In this document: positions 10,508-62,340 of the stretch, piece by piece
Layout of the letters: the number at the start of each line of letters is the position of its first letter
Numbering within the stretch: the first letter of the stretch is position 1
From: Candidatus Nomurabacteria bacterium
GTDB taxonomy: Bacteria; Patescibacteriota; Minisyncoccia; Phycocordibacterales; UBA9973
DNA: 64,000 nt
Assembly (NCBI GenBank): GCA_943350875.1
Contig: CALRAL010000002.1
Coordinates: forward strand, 68,221-132,220
Direction of reading: 5' to 3'
Translations under genes and position numbers: made by a program
The notes under the pieces: model-generated
The model's database searches: none
What the model was told of the DNA's origin: nothing
What the model saw: the letters and a program-made list of their open reading frames with translations, nothing else

Positions 10508-10635
10508 CTCTCAAATGAGCTACAAAAACCACATTTCTGAAATACGAGATGTGGTTTTTTTTTATTTATACTACAAAACAATACGGTCGTCTTGTTTCAT
10601 AGTATACACAGGCAACGCCTGTGTATTTAATTTTG

Positions 10636-11033
10636 TGGAGATGCGGGGAATCGAACCCCGGTGCAGAAGGTTTTTACAAAGAAATCTACATACCTAGCGC
10701 ACTTTTTGGTTTAAATTGAAAAATTCTTAAGCGAGCCAAATATTTTTCAATCGATTCCTTTTGTTTCGAAAAAAAGTCAGGAAATTCTTTTCTCTATCCC
10801 GATTATATTATGCCTGCCCTCATATATCGGAAGTCTATGAGAGAGACACAAGCTTACGCTAAAGCGGAAACTTGAGCAAAAGCAAAGTCCTTCATACCGA
10901 AGTATGGAGAAGCGATTGCTTTTACTTTAGAAGCTAATTTTGCAATTAACATTTGAGCGAATTTTTATGAGATTACGCCCATGCTCAGTATGCATCAATG
11001 GTAAAAAGCCAACTGTCTATGCCTTGCATCCCC
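10636..11033 (-). ncRNA. ssrA: tmRNA (SsrA)
   Basis: 5' end GGGGAUGCAAGGCAUAGACAG... pairs with the 3' acceptor strand ...CAUCUCC-A and includes a G3:U70 wobble (alanine identity). A T-arm CGGGGTTCGATTCCCCG sits immediately 5' of the acceptor. An internal open frame ends ...FAFAQVSALA-TAA (stop at plus 10854-10856). smpB is immediately upstream on the same strand. Confidence 0.8.
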
Positions 11034-13559: not shown

Positions 13560-13805
13560 ATGTTTAGAATATATGTGTTAAAAAGTTTAAAAAATGGAAA
13601 GAGATATGTTGGTTATACGAGTAAAATGTCTGAAAAAAGACTAATCGAACACAATTCAGGATCTAATGCTTTTACAAGACAAAATAGGCCTTTTGTGCTA
13701 ATCTATACCGAGGAATATAGTACAAAAACTGAAGCAATAAAAAGAGAAATTTTTTTGAAATCGGGACAAGGAAGAAAATTTTTAGATAAAATTATCCGCG
13801 TGTAG
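13560..13805 (+). CDS. small GIY-YIG nuclease-family protein
   Basis: IYVLKSLKNGKRYVGYT (GIY...YIG) motif; the stop codon overlaps the first bases of the downstream tRNA. Confidence 0.6.
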   Translation: MFRIYVLKSLKNGKRYVGYTSKMSEKRLIEHNSGSNAFTRQNRPFVLIYTEEYSTKTEAIKREIFLKSGQGRKFLDKIIRV

Positions 13806-13868
13806 CTCAGTTGGTAGAGCAATCCGCTTATACCGGATCGGTCCCACGTTCGAGTCGTGGCACGCGGA
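13796..13868 (+). tRNA. tRNA with anticodon UAU (Ile-like, reads AUA)
   Basis: Manual cloverleaf. Acceptor CCGCGTG/CACGCGG, D-arm TAGCTCAGTTGGTAGAGC, anticodon stem ATCCG/CGGAT with loop CTTATAC, T-arm CCACG-TTCGAGT-CGTGG, discriminator A, no encoded CCA. Confidence 0.7.
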
Positions 13869-13918
13869 CTTGACAGAAAAGTGCATTAGGTGTATACTAT
13901 GTATACATTTATAATTAA

Positions 13919-18976: not shown

Positions 18977-19034
18977 GTTATCCACATTGAGATTTTGTAA
19001 TGTAGATGTATGATGTAGAAGTGTTTAACAAATA

Positions 19035-19200
19035 AATAGGTTCATATTGGGGAAGTGAGGTGAAAGTCCTCCACAGTGCCGCTACGGTAAGTCCGATTTT
19101 GATTGGACAAGTCCGAATACCAATATGATATGTAGTCCCGAGCAGGAATTTAAATACTTAACGTATTTTTAGCCAAATGACTCCTCGGAAGGAGTTTTTT
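19035..19200 (+). promoter_or_regulatory. cobalamin (B12) riboswitch with terminator/SD-sequestering expression platform
   Basis: GGGGAAGTGAGGTGAAAGTCCTCCACAGTGCCGCTACGGTAAGTCCG matches the conserved GGGAA..GGTGAAAnTCC...CCGCTAC.GTAAG core. A downstream AGTCCCGAGCAGGAA B12-box-like segment follows. Hairpin GACTCCTCGGAAGGAGT plus T8 includes the AAGGAG SD, 10 nt before the ATG at 19206. Confidence 0.7.
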
Positions 19201-24858: not shown

Positions 24859-24882
24859 GGGGATATTATAGCATTAATTCTG

Positions 24883-24969
24883 CGGATGAGGTGAGATTCG
24901 AACTCACGGTCCTTTTAAGGGGACGGCGGTTTAGTAAACCGCTGGCTTAAACCACTTGCCTACTCATCC
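24883..24969 (-). tRNA. type II (long variable arm) tRNA, Ser-like, apparent anticodon ACU
   Basis: Manual fold of the minus strand. Acceptor GGATGAG/CTCATCC, discriminator G, anticodon stem GCGGT/ACCGC with loop TTACTAA, long variable arm, T-arm GTGAG-TTCGAAT-CTCAC. Confidence 0.6.
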
Positions 24970-26069: not shown

Positions 26070-26156
26070 GGAGCCGTGGGAGAGCGGTCTAATCTACATC
26101 TTTGCTAAAGATGCAGGGGTTAAACCCCCTCGAGGGTTCGAATCCCTCCGGCTCCG
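26070..26156 (+). tRNA. tRNA-Ser (GCU)
   Basis: Acceptor GGAGCCG/CGGCTCC, discriminator G, anticodon stem CATCT/AGATG with loop TTGCTAA, long variable arm, T-arm AGGG-TTCGAAT-CCCT. Confidence 0.8.
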
Positions 26157-26176
26157 CTAGATTTAATATATTGTTT

Positions 26177-49580: not shown

Positions 49581-50540
49581 ATGGAAAATAGCGATTACAA
49601 AATAATACTTTTTTATAAATACATACACATAGATGACCCAGAAGAAGTAGCCAAGAAAGAGAGAGAAGTCTGCATACGTTTAGGGTTGAAAGGCAGGTGC
49701 ATCATAGCCTCTGAGGGGATAAATGCTACTTATGAGGGGACAGAAGAAAATATAAAAGAGTATGTAAAAAAACTAGAAAAAGATAAAAGATTCTTAAACA
49801 TTCATTTCAAATTAAGTGATGGCACAGGGAATGCTTTTCCGCGACTGTGTGTAAAAACAAGAAAAGAAATAGTGTCGCTACATCTTGGCACATGCGACAT
49901 AGATCCAAATCAAGTGACGGGGATACATCTGAAACCAGAAGAATTACATAGTTGGATAAAAGAAGACAGAGAATTTTATATAGTTGATATGCGTAATGCG
50001 TATGAGCACAAAGTCGGACATTTTGAGAATTCTATTTTGCCTCCGATTGAGAATTTTAGAGATTTGCCAAAAGTAGTGGAGCAGATTGCTCATTTGAAAA
50101 ATAAAACAGTGCTGACTGTGTGTACCGGAGGAGTGCGTTGCGAGAAGGCTTCTGGGTTTTTGATAACTCAAGACTTTACGGATGTGTATCAGCTTGATGG
50201 TGGGATAGTTTCTTATATGGAAAAATATCCGAATGAAGATTTCAATGGTAAGCTGTATGTTTTCGATGGACGAGTGACCATGGGCTTTTATACAGATGAT
50301 AAAAAGCATGTGATAGTAGGTGTTTGTGATTTTTGTAGGGAGCAATCAGAGAATTATGTAAATTGTGATAATCCCGTATGTCATAGGCACTTTATTGCTT
50401 GCGAGAATTGTGTTAAGAAAGATGGAGGAAAAATTTTTTGTAAAAATGGTTGTATATTATCAAGGCATGGGAGGCCTGTCCGCCAACCCGCTAGCGGGGG
50501 CGGAAAGATTAGCCCAGTTGAAGCGGATTTGATACAATAA
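49581..50540 (+). CDS. trhO: rhodanese-domain protein TrhO/YceA family (tRNA U34 hydroxylase-like), with Cys-rich C-terminal extension
   Basis: ILFYKYIHIDDPEE N-terminus, rhodanese CTGGVRCEKAS active-site loop. Confidence 0.65.
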   Translation: MENSDYKIILFYKYIHIDDPEEVAKKEREVCIRLGLKGRCIIASEGINATYEGTEENIKEYVKKLEKDKRFLNIHFKLSDGTGNAFPRLCVKTRKEIVSLHLGTCDIDPNQVTGIHLKPEELHSWIKEDREFYIVDMRNAYEHKVGHFENSILPPIENFRDLPKVVEQIAHLKNKTVLTVCTGGVRCEKASGFLITQDFTDVYQLDGGIVSYMEKYPNEDFNGKLYVFDGRVTMGFYTDDKKHVIVGVCDFCREQSENYVNCDNPVCHRHFIACENCVKKDGGKIFCKNGCILSRHGRPVRQPASGGGKISPVEADLIQ

Positions 50541-50544
50541 AAAT

Positions 50545-51327
50545 ATGAGTGAAGAAATAAAAAAAGGAACACCTGCCCGAAATGCTACGCATAACGTTGC
50601 AGGCGGGGAACATCCACTTTCATTACTAGCAGACCAAGCTTATGGTGTTTTTTCGGAGCTTGGGTTTGAAATAGTCACAGGCCCAGAACTTGAAAGTGAA
50701 TGGTACAACTTTGATGCACTCAATGTTTCTAAGGATCATCCAGCTCGTGACATGCAAGATACTTTTTACACAAAAAATGAGAAGCCTGCCCGCAATGCTT
50801 CCAGCATAACTGATGCAGGCGGGGAAAAAGTCTTACGCACACATACTACCAATGTTACAGCTAGGGCGTTAGAAAAAGCTCAGAAAGAAAATCGTTTGCC
50901 TTCTGCTTTTATTTCAATTGGTAAAGTTTTTAGAAATGAATCTACAGATGCTACACATGAAATGCAATTTTTCCAGATTGATGGAGCTATGGTTGGAGAA
51001 AATATTTCTATCGCTGATTTAAAAGGTGTGCTTACTTATTTTTATAAAAAAGTATTGGGTAAAGATACTGAAATAGAATTCAGACCTAGCTTCTTTCCTT
51101 TTACCGAACCGTCTATCGAAGTGTGGGCCAAATTTAATAACAAATGGCTGGAAATGATGGGTGCCGGCATGCTTCACCCGAATGTTTTACACAATCTTGG
51201 CCTTGATCCTAAAAAGGTGCAGGGTTTTGCTTTCGGTGGCGGACTTGATCGTATTGCCATGATTAAATGGAATATTCCAGACGTTCGCCTTTTTTATCAG
51301 GGTGATTTGAGGCTCAATCAGTTTTAA
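50545..51327 (+). CDS. pheS: phenylalanine--tRNA ligase alpha subunit, short form (no N-terminal domain), with two palindromic in-frame insertions
   Basis: HPARDMQDTFY, LRTHTTNV, FRNESTDATHEMQFFQIDG (motif 2), GFAFGGGLDRIAMIK (motif 3). Confidence 0.85.
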   Translation: MSEEIKKGTPARNATHNVAGGEHPLSLLADQAYGVFSELGFEIVTGPELESEWYNFDALNVSKDHPARDMQDTFYTKNEKPARNASSITDAGGEKVLRTHTTNVTARALEKAQKENRLPSAFISIGKVFRNESTDATHEMQFFQIDGAMVGENISIADLKGVLTYFYKKVLGKDTEIEFRPSFFPFTEPSIEVWAKFNNKWLEMMGAGMLHPNVLHNLGLDPKKVQGFAFGGGLDRIAMIKWNIPDVRLFYQGDLRLNQF

Positions 51328-51330
51328 GAA

Positions 51331-51364
51331 GTTATAAAGTTTATAAAGTCAAAAGTTATAAAGT
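51331..51364 (+). repeat. three direct repeats GTTATAAAGT (candidate operator/promoter for the inserted gene pair)
   Basis: Copies at 51331, 51341 and 51355, immediately after the pheS stop. Confidence 0.5.
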
Positions 51365-51380
51365 AAATATAAATATAAAT

Positions 51381-51830
51381 ATGAAACTCACTGAATTTAT
51401 AATTAAAGCCAAGAAAAATACTTATGCTTCCGATGGAGAAGGAGGTGAAAAATCTTTAGGAGATAATTCAAAAGAATTTCTTTTTAAAAATAAATCTTTT
51501 TTGTATAGAGACAGATATTTCAATAGTAAGGGTAAATTTATAGGTGAAGAAATTGTTTTTAAATCTAAAAAACCAATTTGGGGTATGAACTATTATGGTA
51601 AAATTTTAGTAAATTCAATTAGCAATAAGAAAGTTTATTCATTTCTTAAAAAAGCAATATTGAAAGTGGAAAAAGATAGACCATTTAGGGGGCCAAGAAA
51701 GTTTTTGGAAGGTAATTTTTTATATTTTGATAAAAGTATAGGAACTTATGAAAACTTTTATGGTAAAGAAGAAATATACTTAAATAGAAAAAAAATTTAT
51801 GAATTAAAATATCACGGGGGAATTTTATGA
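51381..51830 (+). CDS. hypothetical protein (possible partner of the MazF-like toxin)
   Basis: ORF immediately upstream of the MazF-like gene; no recognisable motifs. Confidence 0.35.
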   Translation: MKLTEFIIKAKKNTYASDGEGGEKSLGDNSKEFLFKNKSFLYRDRYFNSKGKFIGEEIVFKSKKPIWGMNYYGKILVNSISNKKVYSFLKKAILKVEKDRPFRGPRKFLEGNFLYFDKSIGTYENFYGKEEIYLNRKKIYELKYHGGIL

Positions 51831-51845
51831 AAAATTCTTACAATT

Positions 51846-52238
51846 ATGGAATATAAAAAAGATTTTGATACTTGGAATAAAAAGAAAAAAGAAATTGACA
51901 GTAAAAATGTTTCTAATGATCATTTTGTTAATGAACGAGAAATTTGGTGGGGGTCGCTTGGTTTAAATATAGGGTTTGAACAAGATGGGAAGAATGATAA
52001 TTTTGAAAGGCCATTATTGGTCATAAAGAAGTTTAATAAGGAAATTGTTTGGGTAATTCCATTAACGACAGTCGCAAAAAACAATAAGTTTCATTATAAG
52101 TTGAAATCTAGTGGTTCTTTTGTCATACTTTCACAAATCAGATTGGTTAGTACAAAGAGGTTTATTAGGCGAGCTGAAAGAATAGCCGAATCAGAATTTG
52201 CAAAAATTATAAGTAAAATTAAGGAATTATTCCCATAA
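51846..52238 (+). CDS. MazF/PemK-family endoribonuclease-like toxin
   Basis: REIWWGSLGLNIGFEQDGKNDNFERPLLVI...VIPLTT parallels MazF GDLIWVDFDPTKGSEQAGHRPAVVLS...CVPCTT. Confidence 0.55.
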   Translation: MEYKKDFDTWNKKKKEIDSKNVSNDHFVNEREIWWGSLGLNIGFEQDGKNDNFERPLLVIKKFNKEIVWVIPLTTVAKNNKFHYKLKSSGSFVILSQIRLVSTKRFIRRAERIAESEFAKIISKIKELFP

Positions 52239-52337
52239 AAGCGAAACCCCGCTTTCGCGGGGAATCTCGGGGGACTAACGTCCATTTACAATAAGAAGTA
52301 TATATCCAATAAAAAATAATGTCAAGTAAATAATTTT

Positions 52338-54158
52338 ATGAAAATTTCTTACAATTGGTTAAAGTGGTATGTGCCAGAAGTTCCTGAGGTAGATAAACTT
52401 GCTGATGTTTTTACGTATCATCTTTGCGAAGTAGAATCTTTAACTCCCCTCCTTGGGGAGGAGGGGGCTGGAGATGGTGATTATATTTTCGATTTAAATA
52501 TTTTACCAAACAGAGCGCATGATTTACTTTCTCATCAAGGGATAGCTCGAGAGCTTGCTGGACAGCTTGGAATAAAATTCAATGATCCAACTCCTAAATA
52601 TAAAATTCCTGAGAGCAAACCTACTAATTTAAAAATAAATGTAGAATCTGCACGCAGGTATATGGGGCGTATTGTGCGAGATATAAAAGTGGGTCCTAGC
52701 CCAGAATGGGTAAAGATGCATTTAGAATCAATAGGGGCTAGGAGCATAAACAACATTGTAGATGCTACAAATATCACGATGTTTGATTGTGGTCAGCCTT
52801 GTCATGCTTTTGACTTGGATAAAATAAAAGGAAATATTTCTGTGCGCAATGCTACAGATGGAGAAAAGATAACGACGCTAGACAACAAGGATTTAGTTCT
52901 AAATGCTACAGATGTGGTCATCGCTGATGATGAAGGGGTGCTTGCTCTCGCAGGTGTAAAGGGTGGCAAAAAAGCAGAAGTGGATGCGAACACAAAGAAT
53001 ATCATGCTTGAAGTTGCAAACTTTTTTCCAATATCTACTCGAAAGACCGCGCGTAGGCTCGGTATATTTACAGATGCATTAAAAAGATTTGAAAATGATC
53101 TTTCACCGATGCTTTGTGATTTTGCAATGCTAGAGTTGTCTGCTTTATTGGTTGAATTTGGTTTTAATAATTTTGAAAATGTTGTAGATATTTATCCTAA
53201 AAAACTTCCAGAGAAGAAACTTTCTTTTTCAGTTGCAAAAGTATCTAAGATATTAGGTATTAATGTATCTATGGCAGAAGTGGAGGATATTTTGAAGAGG
53301 TATAGTTTTATATATAGAAACAATGGTGATCTGTTTGAAATAAATGTTCCTTCAATGCGTTTTGATTTAGAGATAGAAGAAGACATGGCAGAAGAAGTGA
53401 GTAGGATTTTAGGGTATGACAAAGTAGAGCCAAAAATGCCAAAAATAAGTTTCAAACCAAAGCAAAATGAAGTTTTTGCGAAGATTAGTTATACCAGAAA
53501 TAAACTTTTAAGCGAAGGATATTCTGAGGTAATGACCTATACTTTTTGCGATAAAGGGGAAGTGTCTGTTTTGGCCTCCGCTTCAGATAAGAAGTTCTTG
53601 CGTACAAATATTACTGATGGACTAAAAGAGAGTATAAAATTAAATCAATTAAATGCGCCATTTTTGGGAATAAAAGAGATAAAAGTTTTTGAGATTGGAA
53701 CAGTGTTTAAAAAAGGAGGTGAAGAAATGCATGTGGCATACGGAGATAAAAAAGAAGTAAAAGAAATGACACTGAATGAATTTACAAAATCGGCAGAGTC
53801 GTTTTTGAATGGTCTGGCTGGGGTAGGGGACCCAGGGAACCGAGGACCTGAAAAAATGACTCTGCCGATGACGTTCAAGATGTGGTCCCTATATCCATTC
53901 ATCGTGCGTGATATCGCTTTCTGGGCTGATGGGGAAATAAATATTGAAGAAATAAAAAATTTAATTAAAGAAAATGCAGGGGAATTAGTTGTAAAAGGTC
54001 CAGAACTTTTTGATACGTTCAGTAAAGATGGTAAAACTTCTTATGCTTTTCGAATTATCTTTCAATCTTTTGATCGCACTTTGACTGATGAAGAAGTAAA
54101 TACTTTTACTTCAAAAATCTCTCAAGTTTTAACTCAAAAAGGTTTTACACTTCGATAG
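52338..54158 (+). CDS. pheT: phenylalanine--tRNA ligase beta subunit (short form), with one palindromic insertion
   Basis: MKISYNWLKWYVPEV N-terminus; B3/4 and B5 regions; C-terminal FDxA anticodon-binding-like domain. Confidence 0.8.
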   Translation: MKISYNWLKWYVPEVPEVDKLADVFTYHLCEVESLTPLLGEEGAGDGDYIFDLNILPNRAHDLLSHQGIARELAGQLGIKFNDPTPKYKIPESKPTNLKINVESARRYMGRIVRDIKVGPSPEWVKMHLESIGARSINNIVDATNITMFDCGQPCHAFDLDKIKGNISVRNATDGEKITTLDNKDLVLNATDVVIADDEGVLALAGVKGGKKAEVDANTKNIMLEVANFFPISTRKTARRLGIFTDALKRFENDLSPMLCDFAMLELSALLVEFGFNNFENVVDIYPKKLPEKKLSFSVAKVSKILGINVSMAEVEDILKRYSFIYRNNGDLFEINVPSMRFDLEIEEDMAEEVSRILGYDKVEPKMPKISFKPKQNEVFAKISYTRNKLLSEGYSEVMTYTFCDKGEVSVLASASDKKFLRTNITDGLKESIKLNQLNAPFLGIKEIKVFEIGTVFKKGGEEMHVAYGDKKEVKEMTLNEFTKSAESFLNGLAGVGDPGNRGPEKMTLPMTFKMWSLYPFIVRDIAFWADGEINIEEIKNLIKENAGELVVKGPELFDTFSKDGKTSYAFRIIFQSFDRTLTDEEVNTFTSKISQVLTQKGFTLR

Positions 54159-61419: not shown

Positions 61420-62340
61420 ATGGCAAATAGGCACCTTTCAAGATCAATAGTTCTCCAGACTCTTTTTGAGTTTGATTTTAATGGCTTTAAAGAAGTCGAT
61501 GTAAAAGAAAGGGTAAAACACAATATAGAAGAATTCGCCCCAGGGCTCGAAGATGATGTTTTTGTCTTTTCTCTCGTAAATGAAATATTAAAGAAGCACA
61601 AAGTTATTGATGAGATAATAGAAAAAGCTGCGCCCGAGTGGCCGATAAATAAAATATCTTTTGTGGATAGGAACATCTTGAGGATTGGTTTGACAGAGTT
61701 ACTCTTTGGTGACAGGACTCAAGTCCCTCCCAAGGTGGCTATCAATGAGGCAATAGAACTTGCCAAAACTTTCGGCGGAGAGAATTCTAGTAAATTCGTA
61801 AATGGAGTCCTCGGTGCTGTGTATAAAGAGATAGGTGAGCCAGGCAAAGAAGAAACTAGTAAGAAAAAGAAAAAAGAAAATGAACCTGTTGATCCAAAAA
61901 AGTTGGCAATGGAGAATTTTGTCGGAGCTCTAATATATGCGAGGAAGGGAACTGATTTATTTTTAGTGTTTGTGCATGATGTATTTGGATATTGGACTTT
62001 ATCAAAGGGGCATATAAATGAAGGAGAGAATGTAGAAGAAGCGACAATAAAAAGAATTAAAGAAGAAATTGGTTTGGATATAATAATAAAGGAAAATCTT
62101 GGGGACAAAGAATACGTGGCTTCGCATCCAGAAAAGGGAAAAATTCTAAAACATGTGACATATTTCCTTGCCGAAAGTGAATACAAAGATATTGTATTAG
62201 AGAAGTCTGGTGGGCTTGATAATGCAAGATGGTTTATGTTAAAAGAAATTCCAGAACTCCATATCTACAATGATATCATTCCACTTATTTCAAAAGCGAT
62301 AGAAATAATTAGTAAACCTGCCCGCAATGCTAAAGCATAG
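61420..62340 (+). CDS. nusB: NusB antitermination factor fused to C-terminal Nudix hydrolase domain
   Basis: NusB region ([14 protein letters not shown]...[12 protein letters not shown]...[10 protein letters not shown]), K-rich linker, Nudix box [23 protein letters not shown]. Confidence 0.7.

What the first reader, a model, noticed from the sequence alone, without database searches (positions are those of the whole stretch)
51328..52285. MazF-like toxin pair inserted between pheS and pheT, with triplicated upstream motif and a pseudoknot-type palindrome downstream
pheS and pheT are normally adjacent. Here two extra ORFs intervene. The second (51846-52238) has the MazF/PemK signature (EIWW..LG...G.EQ.G......RPLLVI...VIPLTT versus E. 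coli MazF DLIWVDFDPTKGSEQAGHRPAVVLS...CVPCTT). The first (51381-51830, 149 aa) has no recognisable DNA-binding antitoxin features. Upstream are three direct GTTATAAAGT repeats (51331-51364). Downstream is a GCGAAA-CCCCGC-TTTCGC-GGGG element (52241-52275) with the same x-y-x'-y' block order as the other palindromic families.
Basis: partly seen in the sequence, partly recalled or inferred. Interest (0 to 1): 0.5.

Follow-up and report, generated by a model that had tools for sequence, protein, structure and literature searches.

The report
MazF-like toxin with conserved antisense sRNA
Between the two phenylalanyl-tRNA synthetase genes of this tiny-genome (Patescibacteria/CPR) bacterium sits a MazF-type RNA-cutting toxin gene whose constant partner is not the neighbouring protein gene but a previously undescribed ~53-base small RNA gene on the opposite strand, probably an RNA antitoxin.

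Summary
The two extra ORFs between pheS and pheT are real. ORF2 (51846-52238) is a genuine MazF/PemK-family protein by Pfam match, predicted fold and conserved E/R/T residues. ORF1 (51381-51830) is DUF5680, and it is not the partner. It lies within 5 kb of this PemK clade in only 3 of about 140 loci, and elsewhere it sits alone in accessory islands.

The "pseudoknot palindrome" downstream is the terminator hairpin of a small RNA gene convergent with PemK:
- promoter TTGACA-17-TATACT at 52325-52297 on the minus strand
- transcript about 52289 to 52237, made of a 5' tail, hairpin P1, a YCCGA linker, and hairpin P2 with a U-tract overlapping the PemK stop codon

A covariance model finds this element abutting the PemK 3' end in about 77 of 81 genome loci from many Patescibacteria classes and nowhere else in 719 kb. 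Covariation is strong, and Rfam has no match. Searching from the RNA side, 60 of 72 elements abut a PemK. A few are orphans or sit beside a decayed PemK.

No conserved protein antitoxin exists. PemK plus sRNA is a long-term resident of pheS-pheT in this lineage, with variable cargo beside it.

Best reading: a MazF-fold toxin with an RNA antitoxin, mode unresolved. This is an inference and has not been tested.

The GTTATAAAGT repeats are real but local, and their function is unknown.

The parts
50545..51327 (+). pheS (short 260-aa form). It carries two in-frame GC-rich palindromic inserts that relatives lack.
   Evidence: TIGR00468 E 7e-82 and PF01409. Alignment with L005/L006 pheS shows the inserts.
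51331..51364 (.). AT-rich direct repeats: GTTATAAAGT twice exactly plus one 9/10 copy. Local to this genome, function unknown.
   Evidence: No sigma-70-like promoter was called here.
51381..51830 (+). DUF5680 protein (149 aa). Variable cargo gene, not part of the PemK module.
51846..52238 (+). MazF/PemK-family endoribonuclease-like protein (130 aa) with a conserved N-terminal extension (K-DFDxWNxxKK).
52237..52289 (-). Predicted small RNA (~53 nt), convergent with PemK. Layout: 5' tail GUAAAUGG, hairpin P1, linker CCCGA, hairpin P2, U-tract. Its 3' end overlaps the PemK stop codon.
   Evidence: CM R1 hit at 52233-52295, minus strand, 60 bits, E 2e-16; it is the only confident hit in the window. 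Fold -21.9 kcal/mol, z -3.45. Comparative support.
52272..52283 (-). P1 hairpin (GGAC-GUUA-GUCC). In most relatives it is GGC-UUCG-GCC.
   Evidence: Covarying pairs GC/CG/AU.
52242..52269 (-). P2 terminator hairpin. The core CCCCGC-GAAA-GCGGGG is at 52247-52262 and the lower stem is CGAGA/UUUCG, followed by a UUUU tail at 52240-52237.
   Evidence: Terminator scan. 7 of 8 pairs show compensatory changes.
52297..52325 (-). Sigma-70-type promoter of the sRNA: TTGACA (52325-52320), 17 nt spacer, TATACT (52302-52297).
   Evidence: Best promoter-like site in the region, 11/12 matches. TTGAC-N16-19-TAnnnT lies at the same distance from the PemK end in 71 of 82 PemK copies.
52338..54158 (+). pheT (606 aa, short form).
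   Evidence: TIGR00472 E 7e-128; B3_4, B5 and FDX-ACB domains.

Best explanation
The locus is a compact two-part module embedded in the pheS-pheT operon. The first part is a MazF/PemK-fold endoribonuclease gene, probably transcribed by read-through from pheS. The second is a convergent small RNA gene of about 53 nt with its own near-consensus sigma-70 promoter and an intrinsic terminator that abuts the PemK stop codon.

The sRNA is the only conserved partner of this PemK clade across Patescibacteria, so it most likely acts as the toxin's antitoxin. Two modes are possible:
- It binds the protein directly, as type III RNAs do. The near-invariant unpaired 5' tail and YCCGA linker and the rigid UUCG-capped P1 favour this.
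- It pairs with the fully complementary read-through mRNA just past the PemK stop codon and triggers its cleavage, as in 3'-overlapping type I systems such as txpA/RatA.

The DUF5680 gene and the AT-rich repeats are unrelated, variable cargo at the same site.

Shown: PemK family membership, the RNA element, its structure and covariation, its strand, and its strict linkage to PemK.

Inferred: that the sRNA is expressed, that PemK is toxic, and that the sRNA neutralises it.
For: (1) A conserved element lies downstream of PemK in nearly all 80 genome loci from Nomura-, Sacchari-, Kaiser-, Wolfe-, Peri-, Peregrini-, Gracilibacteria and others.

(2) The antisense promoter TTGAC-N17-TAnnnT, often with TGn, sits at a fixed distance in 71/82 copies. 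Conservation begins about 7 nt after the -10 at a purine (78/82).

(3) Structure. RNAalifold gives P1 plus P2, with compensatory changes in 9 of 11 pairs. On the CM alignment 96% of cells are paired, with 153 double-change cells against 35 in shuffles (0/500), and values collapse when partners are slid.

(4) Strand. GU/UG pairs 35 against AC/CA 7. The U-tract follows P2 only on the minus strand.

(5) Specificity. There are 82 CM hits in 719 kb, all beside a PemK copy, and a single hit in the 64-kb window.

(6) Reverse test. Of 72 CM-confirmed elements seeded by an 18-mer in metagenomes, 60 abut a convergent PemK, 3 have one slightly further away, 2 are cut off by a contig end, and 7 are orphans. 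Two orphans lie directly after rpoC. Some elements sit beside an internally deleted PemK (L091/L139). The reverse case, a PemK with no such element, is rare: the few loci without a CM hit appear on inspection to carry divergent variants. That asymmetry is what a toxin/antitoxin pair predicts.

(7) No protein family recurs next to PemK. Its neighbours are rpoC/dnaG, dnaK/dnaJ and pheS/pheT, with gaps too short for an antitoxin gene.

(8) The toxin looks active. The MazF fold and the E/R/T residues are conserved.

(9) Tandem multi-copy arrays (L023, L099, L148) and varied genomic sites fit TA-like behaviour.
Against: - There are no expression data. The promoter, transcription start and 3' end are all inferred from sequence.
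- No toxicity or neutralisation has been measured.
- PemK is more conserved (74-87%) than the flanking pheS/pheT (50-69%) and is syntenic over long evolutionary distance. That is unusual for a selfish TA module and would also fit a domesticated regulatory RNase.
- The sRNA shows no specific complementarity to the PemK translation-initiation region (own pairs -11.7 against cross pairs -11.5 kcal/mol, p 0.27). Any antisense action would therefore be limited to the 3' overlap.
- The 18-mer was not found in viral contigs, so there is no phage link.
- A hairpin plus promoter could partly reflect terminator or insulator roles.
Confidence: 0.6

Rival explanations
1. Type II toxin-antitoxin pair: the DUF5680 protein (ORF1) is a novel protein antitoxin for the PemK toxin (ORF2).
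For: The two genes are 15 nt apart and co-oriented in the window. Both also lie between pheS and pheT in L002. A DUF5680 gene is about 300 nt from PemK in L030.
Against: - DUF5680 is absent from 77 of 80 PemK genome loci and from all metagenome loci carrying the sRNA.
- In L002 the order is reversed and the sRNA gene lies between the two.
- Close relatives have other cargo instead: a PQ-loop protein or membrane ORFs, or nothing at all in L215.
- DUF5680 genes elsewhere have no PemK neighbour.
- The model has no DNA-binding fold and no acidic tail.
Confidence: 0.04
2. Not a TA system. The PemK-like protein is a domesticated housekeeping or regulatory RNase, or an RNA-binding protein. The sRNA would then be its substrate, cofactor or RNP partner, or the element would mainly be an operon-internal terminator/insulator plus antisense promoter that tunes expression of the surrounding essential genes.
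For: - Long-term synteny inside pheS-pheT.
- Protein conservation higher than that of the flanking synthetase genes.
- Placement within core operons such as rpoC-dnaG and dnaK-dnaJ.
- The family is large, with 1187 clusters at 50% identity at E<=1e-10.
- PemK is usually co-directional with the upstream gene and close to it.
Against: - Distribution among species is patchy.
- There are tandem arrays of 3-4 modules (L023, L099, L148).
- Orphan sRNAs and a decayed PemK next to intact sRNAs occur.
- Genomic sites differ among proteins 73-76% identical.
- The MazF catalytic residues are retained.
Confidence: 0.28
3. The conserved element is a recombination site or mobile-element end (attC-like or att-like) that moves a promoterless PemK cassette between housekeeping operons. 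On this reading it is not an RNA gene.
For: The module occurs at several distinct intergenic sites and always carries the element at its 3' end. Imperfect inverted repeats are typical of attC sites.
Against: - The element has a near-consensus -35/-10 pair with a fixed 17-nt spacer of variable sequence.
- It has a U-tract terminator.
- Its GU-pair bias indicates selection at the RNA level on one strand.
- No integrase or transposase recurs nearby.
- No attC R''/R' (RYYYAAC/GTTRRRY) motifs are evident in the alignment. This was judged by inspection and is not a formal test.
Confidence: 0.04

Closest known systems
MazF/PemK/Kid type II toxins (PF02452; E. coli MazEF, plasmid R1 Kis-Kid, B. subtilis EndoA/YdcE)
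   Same: The Pfam family, the SH3-like barrel fold, and the conserved E/R/T residues matching MazF E24/R29/T52.
   Different: There is no adjacent MazE/PemI/Kis-type protein antitoxin in any of about 140 loci. The protein has a conserved ~30-residue N-terminal extension (DFDxWNxxKK). Its invariable partner is a convergent small RNA gene.
Type III toxin-antitoxin systems (ToxIN, CptIN, TenpIN)
   Same: An endoribonuclease toxin whose only conserved partner is a small structured non-coding RNA. From my own knowledge, ToxN has a Kid/MazF-like fold.
   Different: Type III antitoxins are tandem repeats (about 36 nt x several) upstream of the toxin on the same strand, and the toxin processes them. 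Here the RNA is a single unit, downstream, on the opposite strand, with its own promoter. The toxin matches PemK_toxin, not ToxN. There were no PADLOC hits.
Type I systems with 3'-overlapping convergent antisense RNAs (B. subtilis txpA/RatA, bsrG/SR4)
   Same: A convergent sRNA with its own promoter and terminator. Its 3' end overlaps the 3' end of the toxin gene, and it would be fully complementary to read-through toxin mRNA.
   Different: Type I toxins are small hydrophobic peptides, whereas this is a 130-aa MazF-fold enzyme. The overlap with the coding region is only 2 nt. The unpaired nucleotides of the sRNA are conserved across classes, which cis-antisense pairing alone does not require.
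Solitary MazF of Myxococcus xanthus (MazF-mx, controlled by the unlinked regulator MrpC; mentioned in PMC2701414)
   Same: A MazF homologue with no adjacent mazE gene.
   Different: That case has a protein antitoxin encoded elsewhere and no linked RNA. Here a linked RNA gene is essentially universal.
Rfam RNA families, including the pemK motif that I recalled from memory
   Same: Only a name-level association with pemK genes.
   Different: No Rfam 15 family matches the region, even at E<=10.

Membership tests
MazF/PemK toxin family (PF02452) | Profile match above the curated threshold | tested here: met
   45.5 bits against a cut-off of 23.1, E 9.6e-12. PHROG MazF-like, E 4e-14.
MazF/PemK toxin family (PF02452) | MazF/Kid SH3-like barrel fold | tested here: met
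   The AF2 model (pLDDT 74) gives Foldseek top-50 hits that are all MazF/Kid/MoxT/YdcE, probability 1.0, TM about 0.6.
MazF/PemK toxin family (PF02452) | Catalytic/RNA-binding residues equivalent to E. coli MazF E24, R29, T52 | tested here: met
   hhalign aligns E45, R55 and T74. E45 and R55 are invariant and T74 is at least 90% conserved in 25 homologues.
MazF/PemK toxin family (PF02452) | Sequence-specific endoribonuclease activity and growth inhibition | not testable with these tools
   Needs expression and cleavage assays.
Type II TA module (MazEF/PemIK type) | Adjacent, co-transcribed protein antitoxin gene conserved with the toxin | tested here: not met
   No protein family recurs within 1.2 kb of PemK in 80 loci. 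DUF5680 is nearby in 3 loci only.
Type III TA (ToxIN-like) | Antitoxin is a tandem array of short RNA repeats upstream of the toxin on the same strand | tested here: not met
   Single-copy element, downstream and antisense. Only L041 and L070 show two copies.
Type III TA (ToxIN-like) | RNA binds and inhibits the toxin protein directly | not testable with these tools
   Only indirect hints: conserved unpaired nucleotides.
Type I TA (3'-overlapping class) | Cis-encoded convergent antisense sRNA with its own promoter and terminator overlapping the toxin transcript | tested here: met
   Met at the sequence level: promoter, terminator and overlap with the stop codon. Expression was not tested.
Type I TA (3'-overlapping class) | Toxin is a small hydrophobic membrane peptide | tested here: not met
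   The toxin candidate is a 130-aa soluble MazF-fold protein.
DUF5680 (PF18931) | Profile match above threshold | tested here: met
   113 bits against a cut-off of 25, full-length domain. 203 homologues, mostly Patescibacteria and some archaea.
Any Rfam family | Covariance-model match | tested here: not met
   No hit at gathering thresholds and none relevant at E<=10.

The most novel reading that the evidence does not exclude
A new kind of toxin-antitoxin system, widespread in Patescibacteria, in which a MazF-fold endoribonuclease is held in check by direct binding of a single, non-repetitive, structured ~53-nt sRNA. The sRNA is encoded convergently at the toxin's 3' end, a type III-like mechanism with a type I-like gene layout. 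The module is hard-wired into essential operons (pheST, rpoC-dnaG, dnaK-dnaJ), so that toxin synthesis is coupled to housekeeping transcription.
Probability: 0.3. Interest if true: 0.85.

Novelty: new variant of a known kind. Interest (0 to 1): 0.7.

Why it matters
MazF toxins are the textbook type II toxins, and all characterised ones are neutralised by proteins. A large clade has no protein antitoxin: at least 1187 clusters at 50% identity, and more than 500 matches in species-representative genomes. That clade always carries a structured antisense sRNA, which would blur the type I/II/III boundaries. It would also add a new, abundant non-coding RNA family to the poorly charted RNA repertoire of CPR bacteria. 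And it would give a directly testable model in E. coli for how ultra-small genomes regulate an RNase embedded in essential operons.

For annotation, genome pipelines that label these genes 'type II toxin-antitoxin system PemK/MazF family toxin' are probably mis-typing them. DUF5680 should not be inferred to be an antitoxin.

Tried and rejected
- DUF5680 as antitoxin: rejected on co-occurrence and gene order.
- Pseudoknot (x-y-x'-y') reading of 52241-52275: rejected. The MFE fold and covariation support plain hairpins. The GCGAAA/TTTCGC complementarity exists only in the closest relatives.
- Membership of a dispersed palindrome family: rejected, because there is a single CM hit in the window.
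- Known RNA family: none in Rfam.
- sRNA pairing with the PemK ribosome-binding or start region: own pairs are no better than mismatched pairs. The CCUCC in the linker is not conserved; the window has CCCCC.
- Phage carriage: the 18-mer core has 0 hits in IMG/VR.
- Defence-system libraries: no PADLOC hit for either ORF.
- Apparent pheS-PemK fusion in L040: an artefact of masked Ns.
- 18-mer-only matches in high-GC contigs were chance coding matches and were removed by the CM.
- Upstream repeats as an operator or promoter: no conserved counterpart and no sigma-70-like site. Left as unknown.
- Literature: nothing on DUF5680 function or on a MazF+sRNA module in CPR.

Full report
**1. What is at the coordinates**

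The window comes from a low-GC Patescibacteria (CPR) genome; the nearest homologues are Nomurabacteria/Paceibacterota MAGs. On the + strand the order is:
- a UPF0176/rhodanese gene
- pheS (50545-51327)
- ORF1 (51381-51830)
- ORF2 (51846-52238)
- pheT (52338-54158)
- gyrB

ORF2 is a MazF/PemK-family protein:
- PF02452, E 9.6e-12, above threshold.
- PHROG 'MazF-like growth inhibitor'.
- The AlphaFold model matches only MazF/Kid/MoxT/YdcE structures.
- Profile alignment puts E45, R55 and T74 on E. coli MazF E24, R29 and T52. E45 and R55 are invariant and T74 is nearly so among 25 homologues.
- The clade carries a conserved N-terminal extension (K5, F7, D8, W10, K14 invariant).

ORF1 is a full-length DUF5680 protein (PF18931, E 9.5e-33).

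The insert is AT-richer (23-29% GC) than pheS/pheT.

**2.

The GTTATAAAGT motif occurs twice exactly and once with one mismatch within 51331-51364. These are the only exact copies in the window. It is low-complexity DNA. It has no counterpart upstream of other DUF5680 genes and no sigma-70-like promoter call. I leave it as a local AT-rich repeat of unknown function.

The downstream letters GCGAAA-CCCCGC-TTTCGC-GGGG are present.

**3. ORF1 is not the partner of ORF2**

I scanned one genome per GTDB species with an alignment of PemK homologues. This gave 512 confirmed matches, of which 80 loci were kept.
- My HMM searches of those loci found DUF5680 within 5 kb only in L030. The other two cases known are the window and its relative L002.
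- In L002 (PemK 87% identical) both genes again lie between pheS and pheT, but in the opposite order.
- Clustering all ORFs within 1.2 kb of PemK found no recurrent small protein at all. The recurrent neighbours are rpoC and dnaG, dnaK and dnaJ, and pheS and pheT, often with gaps of under 150 nt.
- DUF5680 genes looked up independently sit in accessory islands next to AAA_14/DUF4143, RhuM, Bro-N, Fic, NYN and radical-SAM genes, never next to PemK.
- The literature search found nothing on its function.

**4. The real partner: a convergent small RNA gene**

Printing the 110 nt after each PemK gene revealed a conserved element in almost every locus. Read on the strand opposite to PemK, it consists of:
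- TTGAC(A/T), a 17-nt spacer of variable sequence, and TAnnnT (often preceded by TGn)
- about 6 variable nt
- a conserved transcript: 5' tail R-Y-W-A-R-U-G-G, a 3-4 bp hairpin P1 (usually GGC-UUCG-GCC), a linker Y-C-C-G-A, and a ~10-bp GC-rich hairpin P2 followed by UUUCGnUUUU

The supporting results are:
- The promoter pattern is at the same distance from the PemK end in 71 of 82 copies.
- In the window an independent scan calls TTGACA-17-TATACT (52325-52297, minus strand; 11/12 matches) as the best promoter-like site in the region. It also calls a minus-strand terminator at 52262-52247 with a U-rich tail.
- A 64-sequence MAFFT alignment gives P1 and P2 by RNAalifold, with compensatory changes in 9 of 11 pairs.
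- On the model-based alignment 96% of cells are paired. There are 153 double-change cells against 35 in shuffles (0/500), and all measures collapse when partners are slid by 1-3 columns.
- G-U pairs outnumber A-C 35 to 7, so the folded strand is the one antisense to PemK. These sequences are phylogenetically related, so the binomial p value is only indicative.
- Conservation starts at a purine about 7 nt after the -10 box, as expected for a transcription start.
- The window sRNA (about 52289 to 52237) folds at -21.9 kcal/mol, z -3.45. Its U-tract overlaps the PemK stop codon by 2 nt.
- Rfam has no match, even at E<=10.

**5. Linkage in both directions**

From the protein side, the covariance model R1 gives one confident hit in the 64-kb window, at 52233-52295 on the minus strand (60 bits). 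It gives 82 hits in 719 kb of the 81 loci, every one beside a PemK copy. The few PemK loci without a hit (L025, L058, L060, L069) appear by eye to carry divergent variants of the element with the same promoter.

From the RNA side, an 18-nt core was used to seed a metagenome scan. After removing chance matches in high-GC coding DNA with the CM, 72 elements remained:
- 60 abut a convergent PemK
- 3 have PemK slightly further away
- 2 are at contig ends
- 7 are orphans, two of them directly after rpoC, which is a usual site of the module

L091 and L139 show an internally deleted PemK next to an intact element.

Toxin-less RNA genes exist, and RNA-less toxins essentially do not. That asymmetry is what a toxin/antitoxin relationship predicts.

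**6. History at pheS-pheT**

pheS is followed directly by PemK (gaps of roughly 0-17 nt) in L002, L005, L006, L211, L212-214, L215 and L216. In L215 nothing but the sRNA gene separates PemK from pheT.

Other relatives carry different cargo after the sRNA gene: a PQ-loop/SemiSWEET protein, or 207-aa and 84-aa membrane ORFs.

Identity to the window is 58-69% for pheS and 50-62% for pheT, but 74-87% for PemK.

So PemK plus sRNA is an old, strongly constrained resident of this operon, and the space around it is a small cargo hotspot. DUF5680 is one such cargo.

In other lineages the module sits after pheT (L034, L068), between rpoC and dnaG, or next to dnaK/dnaJ. Some genomes have tandem arrays of 3-4 modules.

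The protein clade is large, with 1187 clusters at 50% identity at E<=1e-10.

**7. Mechanism**

Shown by the analyses above:
- an apparently catalytically competent MazF-fold protein
- a structured RNA element with promoter and terminator signatures on the opposite strand
- near-obligate linkage between the two
- no protein antitoxin

Inferred: the sRNA is made constitutively and neutralises PemK. Two modes remain open.

- Direct binding (type III-like). It is favoured by the near-invariant unpaired nucleotides (A11, T13, G14, G29, A30, G31) across class-level divergence. It is also favoured by a UUCG-capped P1, which is ill-suited to loop-loop kissing. Cis-antisense pairing would not require either feature.
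- Antisense action on read-through mRNA. This is plausible because, in the sense direction, P2 is followed by UCUCGG rather than a U-tract, and pheT starts 12 nt after the sRNA -35 box with no promoter call of its own. The operon transcript must therefore contain the full complement of the sRNA.

I found no specific complementarity to the PemK start region.

A non-TA reading, a domesticated RNase with an RNA partner or an operon-internal regulator, cannot be excluded and is given 0.28.

**8. Comparison and novelty**

The protein is a member of the MazF/PemK family: the profile, fold and catalytic-residue features tested were all met. The system fails the defining feature of each established type:
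- type II: no protein antitoxin
- type III: no upstream repeat array, and not a ToxN protein
- type I: not a small hydrophobic peptide

It shares the convergent 3'-overlapping layout with txpA/RatA-type loci.

Literature searches found no description of it. The only solitary MazF mentioned is the Myxococcus case, which has an unlinked protein regulator.

I rate it a new variant of a known kind (an RNA-antitoxin TA module with a MazF-fold toxin). The claim rests on comparative sequence evidence only.

Noticed in passing
window 50572-50615 and 50785-50830 (inside pheS); related copies near 62317 (+) and 59295 (-): GC-rich palindromic elements (CCTGCCCG...CAGGCGGGG, about 36-39 nt) are inserted in frame into pheS. 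They add PARNATHNVAGG and KPARNASSITDAGG, which the pheS of L005/L006/L002 lack. This resembles the in-frame palindromic elements of Rickettsia (RPEs). Similar GC-rich stretches seem to lie near the 3' end of the upstream UPF0176 gene (about 50470-50510) and in pheT (about 52441-52470).
   Followed up: partly
L023 (four PemK copies within 4 kb), L099 and L148 (3-4 copies), L079 (2 copies): Tandem arrays of PemK genes, most with their own antisense sRNA gene. The paralogous sRNAs differ in the 5' tail and linker, which hints at pair-specific recognition.
   Followed up: partly
L162 684-746 and L115 8800-8857: Orphan copies of the sRNA gene lie directly after the rpoC stop codon with no PemK gene. 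In L091/L139 an internally deleted PemK sits next to an intact sRNA element.
   Followed up: partly
L041 5387-5551, L070 5388-5515: Two tandem copies of the sRNA element lie downstream of one PemK gene.
   Followed up: no
L025, L060, L069 downstream of PemK: Divergent variants of the element that the covariance model misses. L025 has extra hairpins inserted, and L060/L069 lack the CCGAG linker, yet all keep the antisense promoter.
   Followed up: no
window 24882-24969 (-) and 13796-13869 (+): ARAGORN calls a tRNA-Ser with anticodon ACT and a tRNA-Ile with anticodon TAT. Both anticodons are unusual. A third tRNA-Ser (GCT) at 26070-26157 was not reported by Rfam at its gathering score.
   Followed up: no
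window 19032-19129 (+) and 10633-11033 (-): An AdoCbl-II riboswitch aptamer (38.5 bits, just above threshold) and a tmRNA gene.
   Followed up: no
window 50545-51327 and 52338-54158: pheS (260 aa) and pheT (606 aa) are short forms that match only the C-terminal parts of the bacterial models.
   Followed up: no
[not shown]
   Followed up: partly
L004 4897-4955 (-): A weak second covariance-model hit (28.9 bits) lies just upstream of the PemK start, between rpoC and PemK. It may be a remnant of another module.
   Followed up: no
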